Origin: Candidatus Methanomethylophilaceae archaeon
Lineage (GTDB): Archaea; Thermoplasmatota; Thermoplasmata; Methanomassiliicoccales; Methanomethylophilaceae
NCBI GenBank assembly: GCA_944320495.1
Contig: CALUHR010000014.1
Coordinates: 1 to 50,526 of the forward strand
Direction: 5' to 3'
DNA: 50,526 nucleotides
Shown: positions 48,456 through 49,821 of the stretch, piece after piece
How positions within the stretch are numbered: position 1 is the stretch's first letter
Layout of the letters: each line of letters begins with the position of its first letter
Made by a program: the position numbers and the translations under genes
The notes under the pieces: generated by a model
What the model was told of the DNA's origin: nothing
Databases searched by the model: none
Seen by the model: the letters and a program-made list of their open reading frames with translations, nothing else

Positions 48456-49742
48456 ATGTCCCAAGACTCCAGTAGATACATCCCCAGACTCGCTGACGTC
48501 GAGCTCCGTGAGAACCTCGAGGCGTTCGGAGCTGTCGTCATCTTGGGTCCCAAATGGTGCGGGAAGACCACCACTGCAGAGCAGGTCGCCGAGAGCGCCA
48601 TATACCTTCAGGATGAGGACCGTAGGGAGGAGTACGAAGCGGCGCTCAAGACGCGTCCGTCCATGCTTTTGGAAGGCCCCAAGCCAAGGCTGCTCGACGA
48701 GTGGCAGACGGCACCGGCCCTCTGGAACGCCGTGCGCAAAAGCGTGGACGACACTGGGCGTGAGGGGCTCTACATAATGACAGGCTCCGCCTCATACGAG
48801 AAGAGGGAGAGCGACCACACAGGTACGGGCAGGATTGTCGAGATGAGGATGCACACGATGAGCCTCTACGAGTCCGGGGCCTCGACCGGGGAGGTGTCCC
48901 TGAGGTCCCTGTTCGGCCCGTGTGCGGTGTCCGGGCAGTCGAGACTGAGCCTGGAGGACATAGCGGAGCAGGTGGTCCGCGGAGGCTGGCCCAGCTCCGT
49001 CGGGAAGAGCACGAGCGTCGCGTGCAGGCAGGTGGCCGGCTACTGCGAGTCCATCGTGAACATGAGGGTCCGGTCCTTCGACGGGAACGGGGACCTGAAG
49101 ACAGGGGCATATCACGATCCCAACAAGATGAGGCAGATCCTCAGGTCCCTTGCCAGAAACGAGTCGTCGATAACGCCTGACACCACGATACTGAGGGACA
49201 TCGCCGAGAGGGACAGCACATCGATCAGCATCAACACCCTGAGGGACTACCTGAACGCTCTCAGGAAGGTGTATCTGATAGACGACACAGCGGCGTGGAG
49301 CCCGAGTCTCCGCTCCAAGGCGACGATGAGAACATCGGACACGAGGCATCTGTGCGATCCAGCCGTGGCGGCGTACTTTCTGGGAGCGTCAGTCAAGGAT
49401 CTTATGTCAGACCTAAACACATTCGGGCTCCTGTTCGAGTCCCTCGTCGTCAGGGACCTCAAGGTCTACGCTGGCGTCCTAGGGGCGGACGTGATGCACT
49501 ACCGGGACAGCGACGACCTCGAAGCAGACGCTATAATCCACATGAGGGGCACCGGGGAGTGGGGAGCCATCGAGGTGAAGCTGGGACAGGGTATGGTGGA
49601 CCAGGCTGCGCGCAACCTGCTGAGGATCAAGGAGAAGGTCAGGAACGAGCCCTCGTTCCTCGCGGTCGTCACAGGGACGGAGTACGCCTACACCCGCGAG
49701 GACGGTGTCCATGTGATCCCGATAGGCTGTCTGAGGGACCGA
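48456..49742 (+). CDS. AAA_14 ATPase with a DUF4143 C-terminal domain (428 aa if CGA is a stop)
   Basis: GPKWCGKTTT, LLDEWQ, TGS, HTGTGRI, FGLLFESLVVRDL, EADAII and AIEVKLG motifs. The family C-terminus DGVHVIPIGCLRD is followed directly by CGA; standard TAA end is 49778. Confidence 0.93.
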
Positions 49743-49821
49743 TGTCATCCACGCTCCATCGTCCACTCGTCGCCCTAAGCGCGCGTTAAATACGATAAAA
49801 CCATCCCCATCCACGATACAA

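What the first reader, a model, noticed from the sequence alone, without database searches (positions are those of the whole stretch)
49700..49778. DUF4143 ATPase ends at CGA exactly where its family ends
Seen in sequence: ...GVHVIPIGCLRD then CGA at 49740, with no CGA in the preceding 428 codons. Established knowledge (from recall): this gut-microbe AAA_14/DUF4143 family typically ends at DGVxVxPIGCLK[D/P]. The context (GAC CGA TGT) is not GATC, so it is independent of the 5979 site.
Basis: partly seen in the sequence, partly recalled or inferred. Interest (0 to 1): 0.7.

Follow-up and report, generated by a model that had tools for sequence, protein, structure and literature searches.

The report
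CGA used as a stop codon
In this gut archaeon the arginine codon CGA sits where related genes have their stop codon in about one gene in eleven and is almost absent inside genes, so it most likely ends translation, which would be the first sense-to-stop code change seen outside organelles.

Summary
The AAA_14/DUF4143 ORF (48456-49778) has its only CGA at codon 429 (49740-49742). That is the column where 106 of 120 database homologues end, and where 76 of 79 loci from other genomes carry TAA, TGA or TAG (none CGA).

It is not a one-gene accident. I compared 198 genes of this genome with orthologues in three congeners. The codon at the orthologue's stop column was a standard stop in 116, CGA in 18, and any other codon in at most 5. 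Coding signal collapses right after such CGAs. Only 24 of 101,293 conserved interior codons are CGA. The CGA-ended genes include PolD, Cdc48 and Elp3, with read-through tails of up to 403 codons. A T follows the CGA in 14 of 18 cases. In 23 operon junctions the CGA overlaps the next ATG (CGATG).

Against a clean reassignment:
- A tRNA-Arg(UCG) gene is present, although its anticodon arm is atypical throughout the genus.
- A few conserved sense CGAs exist. The most striking is one inside the release-factor gene aRF1, kept in 20 of 21 congeners. It looks like a prfB-style feedback device.

An RNA-library contig shows C at 49740, so I found no sign of editing. Termination itself is inferred, not shown. 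I found no paper describing this.

The parts
48456..49739 (+). Coding sequence proper of an AAA_14/DUF4143 ATPase (428 codons, no CGA)
   Evidence: Homologues align to residues 1-428 and 106 of 120 end there.
49740..49742 (+). CGA at the family's stop column, followed by T (CGA TGT): the proposed terminator
   Evidence: listed there as gene g0_568, codon 429, orthologue-verified against G004.
49743..49778 (+). Eleven codons plus TAA that the standard code adds: a tail with no homology, most likely untranslated
   Evidence: tails of the closest homologues are unrelated; coding log-odds is +0.32 before the CGA and -0.52 after it.
5979..5984 (.). CGATCG palindrome. A zinc-ribbon protein gene (+) and the DNA polymerase II large subunit DP2 gene (-) converge here, and each ends in CGA.
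   Evidence: the stop of the G008 DP2 orthologue aligns exactly with the minus-strand CGA (codon 1365). Under the standard code the two ORFs would run 403 and more than 600 codons antisense into each other.
48362..48364 (+). CGA (CGA TCC) at codon 100 of the upstream ORF 48065-48475. If read as a stop, that gene ends before the ATPase start instead of overlapping it. Candidate only.
   Evidence: coding log-odds +0.11 before and -0.77 after. No Pfam match. Not checked by homology.
40624..40626 (+). Candidate CGA terminator at codon 511 of ORF 39094-40761 (Schlafen AlbA_2 / HATPase_c_4 protein)
   Evidence: +0.24 before, -0.40 after; the last Pfam domain ends at residue 488; an RNA-library contig covers 40512-40766.
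41694..41696 (-). Candidate CGA terminator at codon 410 of the LarC-type nickel-insertion gene (ORF 41388-42923)
   Evidence: CGA at codons 410 and 429; the Ni_insertion profile (1-375 of 375) is complete by residue 400 of a 511-codon ORF.
35927..35929 (+). Candidate CGA terminator at codon 758 of a 763-codon UvrD-like helicase ORF (33656-35947)
   Evidence: Not checked by homology.
22406..22408 (+). CGA as the next-to-last codon of ORF 21941-22414. Candidate only.

Best explanation
In this archaeon and its close congeners, CGA, above all CGA followed by U, works as a translation termination signal. About 9% of genes use it in place of UGA. The DUF4143 ATPase therefore ends at D428, and the 12 extra residues in standard-code annotations are not made, or are made only by occasional read-through.

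Proposed mechanism (inferred, not shown):
- The genus first drove CGA almost out of its genes, and its tRNA-Arg(UCG) has a weakened anticodon arm.
- The single aRF1 then competes successfully at CGA, which differs from UGA only in the first base.
- GC-rich species convert TGA stops to CGA wherever this does not destroy an overlapping ATGA start.
- Terminator CGAs sit in contexts that disfavour the tRNA (+4 U common, +4 A rare).
- One conserved in-frame CGA inside the aRF1 gene itself (Arg88, context CGA-C) would let aRF1 limit its own synthesis. This parallels the in-frame UGA of bacterial prfB.

Shown here: the position of CGA at stop columns, its depletion inside genes, the collapse of coding signal after it, its context, its place in operon junctions, and the conserved CGA in aRF1.

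Inferred: that ribosomes stop there, and that aRF1 is the agent.
For: 1. This gene. 106 of 120 homologues end at the CGA column. 76 of 79 loci from other genomes have a standard stop there and none has CGA. A second paralogue in this genome (C5) and one in G018 also have CGA there.

2. Genome-wide homology. Of 198 genes with an orthologue in sampled pieces of G008, G004 or G013, the codon at the orthologue's stop column is TGA 110, TAA 3, TAG 3, CGA 18, already ended 16, and every other codon at most 5 (TGG not among the 11 commonest) (first seen).

3. Coding log-odds. Around the first CGA in the last 60 codons (160 of 933 ORFs of 200 aa or more), the score falls from +0.19 (-10..-6) to -0.47 (+1..+5). 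The control codons CGG, CGT, AGA, TCA, CCA and AAA show no such step.

4. Depletion inside genes. 24 CGA in 101,293 conserved interior codons, against CGG 164, CGT 299 and AGA 306. Fifteen of the 24 lie in two doubtful ORF stretches. Most ORFs in the window have no CGA at all; where it occurs it is mostly in their ends.

5. Tails too long to be tolerated if translated. PolD DP2 403 codons, Cdc48 270, an SIS protein 234, a B12 radical-SAM protein 121. Median tail of the 18 verified cases is 22 codons, against 27 for hypothetical read-through of TGA.

6. Context. +4 is T in 14 of 18 verified sites and in 58% of 179 candidate sites, against 29% after TGA stops. A is rare: 1 of 18, and 5%.

7. Operon geometry. 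23 of the 72 CGA boundaries that have a same-strand downstream gene show the one-base stop/start overlap CGATG. TGA stops use ATGA (169 of 407), where a C would destroy the start codon.

8. Other assemblies. CGA lies within 2 codons of the end of homology in G010 9 of 55, G013 5 of 64, G004 2 of 60 and G008 1 of 160. G018 has 12 of 130 sharp boundaries, against 3-4 for control codons. Between G018 and G000 (98% amino-acid identity) there are 5 TGA/CGA exchanges and 1 exchange between standard stops in 120 pairs.

9. aRF1. CGA encodes the invariant Arg of A(A/S)RLKT in 20 of 21 genus genomes, while the next Leu codon varies through CTC, CTG, CTA and CTT. In the other genera, that is 7 of the order and 19 of the family in which aRF1 was located, that Arg is CGC, CGT, CGG, AGA or AGG in all but one representative.

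10. tRNA-Arg(UCG). All 5 outgroup copies have a canonical 5-bp anticodon stem. All 11 type-A copies examined in the genus, from 12 genomes that carry the type (G018's is identical to G000's), have a mismatched 31-39 pair. All 4 type-B copies have C33 in place of U33.
Against: - A tRNA-Arg(UCG) gene is present and foldable in G000. It has the A20 and C35 that I recall as Arg identity elements, is 100% identical in G018, and shows compensatory stem changes across the genus, so it is under selection and CGA can presumably still be read as Arg.
- Conserved sense CGAs exist: aRF1 Arg88 and ribosomal protein L18e (CGA in G000, G008 and G010). They show that CGA is not purely a stop.
- The NIKS and YxCxxxF motifs of aRF1, which by recalled structural work read the first U and the purines of stop codons, are unchanged. 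How a C in first position would be accepted has no known structural basis.
- The aRF1 change unique to G000 and G018 (Gly38 to Ser in the GTS-loop position) does not track the trait, because G010 shows the trait without it.
- In the larger candidate set the tails are shorter than hypothetical TGA read-through tails (median 15 against 27, p = 2.5e-7). CGA directly followed by a stop is also over-represented (10.6% against 3%). This fits leaky termination, or selection on translated tails.
- CGA-ended genes have a somewhat lower codon-adaptation score (0.696 against 0.737).
- My gene set is a crude ORF caller, not a curated annotation.
- No proteomic, ribosome-profiling or biochemical evidence was available.
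Confidence: 0.72

Rival explanations
1. CGA is simply arginine. Under GC pressure many TGA stops mutated to CGA, and the proteins really carry unconserved C-terminal extensions up to the next in-frame stop (tolerated stop loss).
For: A selected tRNA-Arg(UCG) gene is present. A few conserved sense CGAs exist. Candidate tails are shorter than expected, and 'CGA then stop' is enriched. CGA-ended genes have lower codon adaptation. The trait is commonest in the GC-rich species.
Against: - Stop loss should yield TGG and GGA about as often as CGA. At stop columns CGA is 18 and no other sense codon exceeds 5 (TGG not among the 11 commonest).
- It does not explain T at +4 in 14 of 18 sites, or the CGATG stop/start overlaps.
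- It implies junk extensions of 403, 270 and 234 codons on PolD, Cdc48 and others, partly antisense to neighbouring genes.
- CGA at a stop column is kept between species (3-4 shared sites per comparison), and the CfbC junction is kept down to 58% identity.
- G004 is as GC-rich as G000 but has few such sites.
Confidence: 0.1
2. The C of these CGAs is deaminated in the mRNA (C-to-U editing), giving an ordinary UGA stop. CGAU would then be the recognition motif of an editing enzyme.
For: CGA differs from UGA by exactly a C-to-U change. The sites share a sequence context. The unchanged NIKS motif of aRF1 would need no explanation. Editing of CGA to UGA is known from plant organelles (recalled).
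Against: A contig from an RNA library (X15, record 16, 49546-49863) has 0 differences from the DNA, so it reads C at 49740. Another contig (record 10) covers 40512-40766 with 2 differences whose places were not listed. This evidence is weak: depth is about 3, contigs give only a consensus, and DNA can be present in RNA libraries. Editing also would not explain why sense CGA was purged from genes, why aRF1 keeps an in-frame CGA, or why the tRNA(UCG) anticodon arm is altered. mRNA editing is not known in archaea (recalled).
Confidence: 0.06
3. CGA is effectively unassigned. Ribosomes stall at it because the tRNA is poor, and a rescue route (Pelota-type splitting plus peptidyl-tRNA hydrolase, or drop-off) releases them, not aRF1. 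The outcome is the same, with the protein ending at the CGA, but the agent differs.
For: The tRNA(UCG) anticodon arms are atypical across the genus. CGA is nearly absent from genes even in G008 (0.09 per 1000 core codons). The aRF1 recognition motifs are unchanged. Unassigned arginine codons have precedents: CGG in Mycoplasma capricolum, cited in a passage of PMC8629427 seen.
Against: Rescue is slow and costly for about 9% of genes, including PolD and Cdc48. It does not explain the conserved CGA inside the aRF1 gene in particular, or the CGATG coupling geometry typical of real stops.
Confidence: 0.1
4. Assembly or sequencing artefact: T miscalled as C in some motif, for example at methylated sites.
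For: The sites share a CGAT context and 22 of 179 are CGATCG palindromes. The genome is a 14-contig assembly, 90.6% complete.
Against: The same pattern is present in separate assemblies of other species (G018, G010, G013). Database proteins from several sources also carry an R-initiated junk tail. A contig from another study's library matches 49546-49863 exactly. Interior CGA is depleted and aRF1 keeps one CGA across 20 genomes, which no miscall explains. There are 4 TGA/CGA differences in one direction and 1 in the other between sister species.
Confidence: 0.02

Closest known systems
Sense-to-stop reassignments in organelles (recalled: AGA/AGG in vertebrate mitochondria, UCA in Scenedesmus mitochondria; green-algal cases in PMC6821328, PMC6551751 and PMC12574857, of which I saw only search listings and abstract starts)
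   Same: An amino-acid codon (in vertebrates also an arginine codon) stands at the end of genes in place of a standard stop and is avoided inside genes.
   Different: Those are tiny organellar genomes with a handful of genes, and the cognate tRNA is lost. Here it is a 1.77 Mb cellular genome with well over a hundred candidate sites. A cognate tRNA is retained, a few sense uses are conserved, and there is a strong +4 context.
Speculated CGA stop in two hydrothermal-vent archaeal assemblies (bioRxiv 10.64898/2026.04.02.715157; I read passages)
   Same: It concerns archaea in which CGA is absent from recognisable domains. The author raises the possibility that CGA is a stop.
   Different: That paper says its method cannot infer stops and gives no positional evidence. 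Those assemblies lack tRNA(UCG), have about 50% GC and also reassign CGG to Trp. Here CGG is still aligned mostly with Arg and Lys, tRNA(UCG) is present, and the stop-column evidence is direct.
Autoregulation of bacterial release factor 2 by an in-frame UGA in prfB (recalled)
   Same: The gene for the termination factor carries, early in its reading frame, a conserved codon that the factor would itself act on. High factor levels would then abort its own synthesis.
   Different: prfB needs a +1 frameshift to pass the UGA. Here passage would be plain decoding of CGA by tRNA-Arg(UCG) at a conserved Arg. The feedback is inferred from conservation only.
Context-dependent stop/sense codons of ciliates and trypanosomatids (Condylostoma, Cell 2016, PMC4967479, listing only; tRNA-Trp with a 4-bp anticodon stem reading UGA, PMC13092985, abstract start only)
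   Same: One codon has both meanings, a cognate or near-cognate tRNA competes with the release factor, and an unusual 4-bp anticodon stem is involved.
   Different: There, standard stops gain a sense meaning and are common inside genes. Here a sense codon gains a stop meaning and is nearly absent inside genes. The shortened stem is in the tRNA of the codon that is being lost, not gained.
Unassigned codons (recalled: CGG in Mycoplasma capricolum, AGA in Micrococcus luteus; the former is cited in a passage of PMC8629427 seen)
   Same: A rare arginine codon is driven out of genes by composition pressure, the classic first step of codon capture.
   Different: Those codons are simply missing. Here the codon reappears at gene ends in a GC-rich genome, where composition would favour it as a sense codon.

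Membership tests
Stop codon (operational criteria) | Lies at the alignment column where homologues have their stop | tested here: met
   This gene. Genome-wide: CGA at 18 of 198 orthologue stop columns, any other sense codon at most 5.
Stop codon (operational criteria) | Absent from conserved interiors of genes | tested here: inconclusive
   24 of 101,293 interior aligned codons. Some of those 24 are junctions of in-frame neighbouring genes (CfbC/CfbD and GmhA/GmhB). True sense uses remain in aRF1 and L18e.
Stop codon (operational criteria) | Coding signal ends directly after it | tested here: met
   Log-odds +0.19 to -0.47 across the codon in 160 ORFs, with no such step for six control codons.
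Stop codon (operational criteria) | Takes the stop position in stop/start overlaps of operons | tested here: met
   CGATG overlap at 23 of 72 junctions.
Stop codon (operational criteria) | No cognate tRNA | tested here: not met
   tRNA-Arg(UCG) is present in G000 and in 15 further genus genomes examined. Its anticodon arms are atypical.
Stop codon (operational criteria) | Recognised by the class-I release factor; protein ends there | not testable with these tools
   Only circumstantial: a single aRF1 match to the eRF1_2 family in this genome, genus-specific substitutions beside the NIKS motif and the Glu62 position, Gly38Ser in G000 and G018, and the conserved in-frame CGA.
Organelle-type complete sense-to-stop reassignment | The codon has lost its amino-acid meaning and its tRNA | tested here: not met
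   Sense CGA at aRF1 Arg88 and in L18e; tRNA retained.
prfB-type release-factor autoregulation | Conserved in-frame termination signal inside the factor's own gene | tested here: met
   CGA at Arg88 in 20 of 21 genus genomes with variable neighbouring synonymous sites. 17 of 19 representatives of other genera in which aRF1 was located (20 sampled) carry at least one CGA in aRF1, although CGA is scarce around it. Whether it is a termination signal there is the open point.
prfB-type release-factor autoregulation | Programmed frameshift needed to pass the signal | tested here: not met
   The aRF1 frame is continuous and CGA aligns with an invariant Arg.
AAA_14/DUF4143 ATPase (the gene itself) | Pfam AAA_14 plus DUF4143 above the gathering scores, about 420 aa, C-terminus ...P(I/L)GCL(K/R)x | tested here: met

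The most novel reading that the evidence does not exclude
A whole genus of gut methanogen-related archaea, and perhaps in weaker form its family, runs a 4-stop genetic code. CGA-U is read by aRF1 as a terminator in competition with a deliberately weakened tRNA-Arg(UCG). The release-factor gene keeps one in-frame CGA as a sensor that balances aRF1 against that tRNA. This would be the first sense-to-stop reassignment in a cellular genome, the first stop signal of a cellular organism that starts with C, and the first release-factor feedback loop of this kind in archaea.
Probability: 0.55. Interest if true: 0.95.

Novelty: new variant of a known kind. Interest (0 to 1): 0.9.

Why it matters
- **Genetic code.** All known cellular codes keep the 61 sense codons as sense, or swap them between amino acids. 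Turning a sense codon into a stop has been seen only in organelles.
- **Evolutionary snapshot.** A free-living lineage caught in the act would be a natural experiment on how codes change. All the stages are present here: a nearly extinct sense codon, a crippled but retained tRNA, terminator use rising with GC content, and a possible feedback through the release-factor gene.
- **Release-factor recognition.** It would also bear on how eRF1/aRF1-type factors recognise the first base of a stop.
- **Annotation.** Standard-code annotation of these genomes mis-extends or fuses roughly one gene in ten. In this window PolD and its neighbour are predicted to overlap antisense by kilobases. Those false tails are already in protein databases, since 10 of the 120 top homologues carry one.
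- **Genetic-code tools.** Members of this archaeal order supply parts for genetic-code engineering, so their own decoding rules matter to users of those parts.

Tried and rejected
- **Frameshift to a hidden stop at CGA.** Neither the -1 nor the +1 frame gives a nearby stop at 49740. The consensus context CGAT(G/C) creates none.
- **Restriction or methylation motif.** CGATCG accounts for only 22 of 179 candidate sites, and CGAT is not otherwise unusual genome-wide.
- **aRF1 Gly38Ser as the cause.** It is unique to G000 and G018 among 28 aRF1 sequences, but G010 and G013 show the trait without it.
- **'Species without the trait lack tRNA(UCG)'.** blastn found the tRNA in only 12 of 25 genus genomes. 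A covariance model then found a second, divergent form in G008, G015, G007 and G019, so the idea was dropped. No tRNA(UCG) appeared among the hits examined for G006, which is 93% complete, so this is no proof of absence.
- **Tail-length test.** The result depends on the set used: median 15 codons in 179 candidates against 22 in 18 verified sites. I do not use it to decide between tight and leaky termination.
- **RNA editing.** Only contig-level data were available. I could verify exact identity to the DNA at only one site. Parts of the stretch without cover say nothing.
- **Earlier notes of this scan.** Two look-ups returned nothing.
- **Wider family survey.** I sampled 20 kb around aRF1 in 20 genomes. 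It is too small to say whether CGA ends genes outside the genus: CGA lay near the end of homology in 3 of 187 genes. Crude ORF counts there were unreliable in GC-rich pieces.
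Full report
**1. The observation**

The window is a whole 50,526-base contig (C14) of a 1.77 Mb, 14-contig, 61-62% GC genome, 90.6% complete. The tRNA set has an archaeal look, which is my reading. Sources name homologues of its genes as Methanomassiliicoccales archaea. Public runs that hold the stretch are mostly chicken-gut metagenomes.

ORF 48456-49778 (+) has 440 codons. It reads ...GVHVIPIGCLRD, then CGA at 49740-49742, then CHPRSIVHSSP and TAA. It matches Pfam AAA_14 and DUF4143 above their cut-offs. CGA occurs nowhere else in the ORF.

- 106 of the 120 best database homologues end exactly at the column of D428.
- In 20 loci, 19 from related genomes plus the window's own, the column is TGA 17, TAA 1, CGA 2.
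- In 79 loci from mostly unrelated bacteria and archaea it is TAA 39, TGA 21, TAG 16, other 3, and never CGA.
- Of the 14 longer homologues, 10 (the query among them) start their extension with R and continue with mutually unrelated sequence.
- For the one such paralogue in another genome whose DNA I could read (G018), that R is CGA. A second paralogue in this genome (C5) also has CGA at the column.

**2. It is genome-wide**

I built a crude gene set of 1,405 ORFs by iterative codon scoring. In it CGA has a U-shaped distribution along ORFs. The deciles are 444, 224, 99, 67, 23, 32, 33, 60, 99, 326. Other rare codons rise much less at the 3' end. In ORFs of 200 aa or more, the last ten codons hold 109 CGAs, while ten-codon bins 50-100 codons from the stop hold 11-20.

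Around the first CGA in the last 60 codons (160 of 933 ORFs), coding log-odds stays at +0.19 to +0.22 up to 6 codons before it. It drops to -0.47 in the five codons after it and stays there. CGG, CGT, AGA, TCA, CCA and AAA show only gradual changes.

CGA is common in non-coding sequence and in the other frames (25 to 69 per 1000). Its near-absence in frame is therefore selective.

**3. Homology test**

I fetched 400 kb of G008, 140 kb each of G013 and G004, 109 kb of G010 and 205 kb of G018. All are the same genus by the tool's labels.

For 198 G000 genes the alignment reaches within 2 residues of the orthologue's C-terminus (G008, G004, G013). The G000 codon at the orthologue's stop column is:
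- TGA 110, TAA 3, TAG 3
- CGA 18
- already ended 16
- every other codon at most 5 (TCC 5; TGG not among the 11 commonest listed) (first seen against G008 alone).

So about 9% of genes have CGA where relatives stop.

The 18 genes include the DNA polymerase II large subunit DP2, Cdc48, an XPD-like helicase, Elp3, adenylosuccinate lyase, an AIR-synthase-related protein and an exosome Csl4/Rrp4-type protein. Their standard-code tails have a median of 22 codons and reach 403, 270, 234 and 121.

Inside conserved alignments, at least 15 codons from either end, CGA is 24 of 101,293 codons. The other rare arginine codons there are CGG 164, CGT 299 and AGA 306. Fifteen of the 24 sit in two stretches that look like shared non-coding ORF extensions.

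**4. The site at 5979**

At 5979-5984 the palindrome CGATCG joins two convergent genes. The plus-strand zinc-ribbon protein ends ...SYFGPKV-CGA. The minus-strand DP2 ends ...KLSDFF-CGA, exactly where the G008 orthologue stops. Under the standard code the two ORFs would run more than 600 and 403 codons into each other's antisense strand.

This site and 49740 are two instances of one phenomenon, and both have T after the CGA.

**5. Context and operon geometry**

The base after the CGA is T in 14 of 18 verified sites (G 2, C 1, A 1). In 179 candidate sites it is T in 58% and A in 5%. After TGA stops it is T in 29% and A in 20%. The commonest hexamers are CGATCG 22, CGATGA 16 and CGATGG 16.

Seventy-two CGA boundaries have a same-strand downstream gene start within 80 nt. 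In 23 of them the ATG overlaps the A of the CGA (CGATG). Only 10 of 407 TGA stops have that geometry. Instead, 169 of 407 use ATGA, in which a T-to-C change would destroy the start codon. CGA thus occupies the stop position in coupled gene pairs wherever that is chemically possible.

A preference for +4 U and avoidance of +4 A is what I would expect if the sites are selected to disfavour decoding by a tRNA. Nonsense suppression is strongest with a 3' purine, above all A. That is recalled knowledge, not tested here.

**6. Relatives**

CGA lies within 2 codons of the end of homology to G000 in:
- G010: 9 of 55 genes
- G013: 5 of 64
- G004: 2 of 60
- G008: 1 of 160
The control codons stay low.

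G018 has 12 of 130 ORFs with a sharp CGA boundary, against 3-4 for the controls. G018 and G000 are sister species (median 98% amino-acid identity). Their 120 gene pairs show 5 TGA/CGA exchanges at the terminal column and 1 exchange between standard stops.

Even G008 (54% GC) uses CGA at only 0.09 per 1000 core codons. In its genes that have a homologue in G000, nearly all CGAs lie before or after the region of homology. Avoidance of sense CGA is therefore genus-wide. Use of CGA at gene ends is graded, and it is strongest in G000, G018 and G010.

**7. What speaks against a clean reassignment**

G000 has a tRNA-Arg(UCG) gene (C13:413317-413390), and G018 has an identical copy. Homologues in ten further genus genomes show compensatory stem changes, so the gene is under selection. 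It carries the A20 and C35 that I recall as Arg identity elements.

Its anticodon arm is odd, however:
- All 11 'type A' copies examined, from 12 genomes that carry the type (G018's is identical to G000's), have a mismatched 31-39 pair, that is, a 4-bp stem.
- The G000 and G018 copies alone also have U32 and C38.
- G008, G015, G007 and G019 carry a 'type B' gene with C33 in place of the near-universal U33, plus A37 and C38.
- All five outgroup tRNA-Arg(UCG) genes have a canonical 5-bp stem and a CUUCGGA or CUUCGAA loop.

True sense CGAs also exist. Ribosomal protein L18e has a CGA aligned with Arg, and it is CGA in G000, G008 and G010 as well. aRF1 has one too (next section).

Two other 'internal' conserved CGAs turned out to lie between Pfam domains of neighbouring in-frame genes. 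These are NifH-like CfbC then CfbD at codon 301, and a SIS-domain protein then a HAD phosphatase at codon 186. The first is kept as CGA in G018, G008 and a G010 paralogue. They are best read as conserved terminators, or possibly as read-through sites.

**8. The release factor**

G000 has one match to the eRF1_2 family. It is a 420-aa aRF1 with intact NIKS and YxCxxxF motifs. G000 and G018 alone have Ser where 26 other sequences of the order have Gly (RGR-S-TELIS). That is the first position of what I recall as the GTS loop of eRF1. G010 shows the trait without this change, so it is not required. Substitutions fixed in the genus flank the recognition elements, for example Q63 next to the conserved Glu and M75 four residues after NIKS. 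There are 35 such positions along the protein, so this is only suggestive.

The strongest lead is different. The invariant Arg of A(A/S)RLKT(Y/F)K, codon 88 in G000, is encoded by CGA in 20 of 21 genus genomes. These include G008 and G015. The next Leu codon varies through CTC, CTG, CTA and CTT. The exception, G005, has Lys there and a CGA at another Arg.

In seven genera of other families of the order, that Arg is CGC, CGT, CGG or AGA. I also sampled one or two representatives from each of 18 further genera of the same family:
- aRF1 was located in 19 of the 20 representatives. The Arg is CGC, CGT, AGA, AGG or CGG in 18 of them and CGA in one.
- 17 of those 19 carry at least one CGA somewhere in aRF1.
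- In 4 of the 20 it is the only CGA in the conserved genes of about 20 kb around it. In 7 more the only other CGAs lie in hits to one doubtful ORF (g0_495).

A release-factor gene that keeps a codon which the rest of the genome shuns recalls the in-frame UGA of bacterial prfB. It suggests that aRF1 acts on CGA and so limits its own synthesis, with tRNA-Arg(UCG) providing passage. This is inference from conservation only.

**9. Alternatives**

- **Plain stop loss with translated tails.** This does not explain the specificity for CGA over TGG and GGA, the +4 T, the CGATG overlaps, the very long tails on essential proteins, or the conservation of such CGAs between species.
- **C-to-U editing to UGA.** It would explain the unchanged NIKS motif. 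But an RNA-library contig (X15, 49546-49863) is identical to the DNA, so it reads C at 49740. That evidence is weak: depth is about 3, contigs give only a consensus, and DNA carry-over is possible. Editing also leaves the purge of sense CGA and the aRF1 codon unexplained.
- **Stalling at an effectively unassigned codon, followed by rescue.** This gives the same protein ends by another agent, and I cannot exclude it.
- **An assembly artefact.** This is excluded for practical purposes by the independent assemblies and by the evolutionary pattern.

In the 179-site candidate set the tails are shorter than hypothetical TGA read-through tails (median 15 against 27). 'CGA then stop' is also enriched, and CGA-ended genes have a lower codon-adaptation score. 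Together with the retained tRNA, this points to a somewhat leaky terminator. It is not a perfect one.

**10. Literature**

I found no report of CGA as a stop in this group:
- Searches for CGA / stop codon / codon reassignment / archaea, Methanomethylophilus / CGA / codon, sense-to-stop / codon reassignment and Methanomethylophilaceae / genetic code returned none.
- Passages of the Codetta paper (PMC8629427) do not mention this order.
- Passages of the PNAS 2025 amber-codon paper (PMC12626013) do not mention CGA.
- A 2026 preprint (10.64898/2026.04.02.715157, passages read) notes that CGA is absent from known domains in two hydrothermal-vent archaeal assemblies that lack tRNA(UCG). It says CGA might be a stop, but that its method cannot tell.
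- Sense-to-stop changes are otherwise described for organelles. I saw only listings and abstract starts for these.

I did not open any supplementary files. The Codetta per-genome tables could show '?' at CGA for these genomes.

**11. Verdict**

The ATPase most likely ends at D428.

The larger finding is a lineage in which CGA, preferably CGA-U, has taken on the role of a stop codon for roughly one gene in eleven. A weakened cognate tRNA and a handful of conserved sense CGAs persist, one of them in the release-factor gene.

I put the probability that ribosomes really terminate at these CGAs at about 0.7-0.8 whatever the agent, and at about 0.55 that the agent is aRF1 with feedback through its own CGA.

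Noticed in passing
G000 contig C2:85936-87195 (-), locus L041/L075; not in the window: The single aRF1 gene carries an in-frame CGA at the invariant Arg88 (GCT CGA CTC). The same codon is kept in 20 of 21 genus genomes, although CGA is otherwise almost unused. Other genera of the family carry a CGA at other Arg positions of aRF1.
   Followed up: yes
G000 C2 aRF1 residue 38 (L041): Gly to Ser at the first position of the GTS-loop equivalent (RGRSTELIS). It is unique to G000 and G018 among 28 aRF1 sequences of the order, and it does not track the CGA trait.
   Followed up: partly
G000 C13:413317-413390 (L063) and homologues L062-L073, L129-L132: tRNA-Arg(UCG) occurs in the genus in two atypical forms. 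One has a mismatched 31-39 pair (4-bp anticodon stem). The other has C33, A37 and C38. Outgroup genera have canonical anticodon arms.
   Followed up: yes
G000 C13:191554-192342 (-), L156: The ribosomal protein L18e gene has a conserved internal CGA aligned with Arg (TGG CGA GAT). It is also CGA in G008 and G010. This is a second translation-related gene that keeps a sense CGA.
   Followed up: partly
G000 C5:79781-81961 (-), L154; C13:193618-194700 (-), L155: The NifH-like (CfbC-type) and nitrogenase-component-1-like (CfbD-type) genes, and the SIS-domain and HAD-phosphatase genes, lie in one frame separated only by a CGA. The CfbC junction CGA is conserved in G018, G008 and a G010 paralogue. 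These could be plain terminators, or sites of regulated read-through that give fusion proteins.
   Followed up: partly
window 48065-48475 and 48456: Under the standard code, the small ORF upstream of the ATPase overlaps the ATPase start by 20 nt. If it ends at CGA 48362 (CGA TCC), the two genes are separated by about 90 nt that contain AT-rich sequence.
   Followed up: no
whole genome and window ORFs: TAG ends 161 of 1,405 crude ORFs, and ARAGORN listed no tRNA with a CUA anticodon. I did not examine whether this genome encodes pyrrolysine.
   Followed up: no
genus genomes: The AAA_14/DUF4143 family is strongly multi-copy in the genus (for example 22 matches in G002, 16 in G014, 7 in G000). 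It is also spread over many unrelated gut bacteria at 42-57% identity, which suggests frequent horizontal transfer.
   Followed up: no
window 41302 and 44523 (table 5c): Contigs of two RNA libraries from different studies (X15, X16) join 44523 to 41302 with 7 extra letters between. This could be a rearranged variant or a repeat. Not examined.
   Followed up: no
window 49822-50526: The gene after the ATPase is an isocitrate/isopropylmalate dehydrogenase, cut by the contig end. Many strain differences are seen there in all four runs laid.
   Followed up: no
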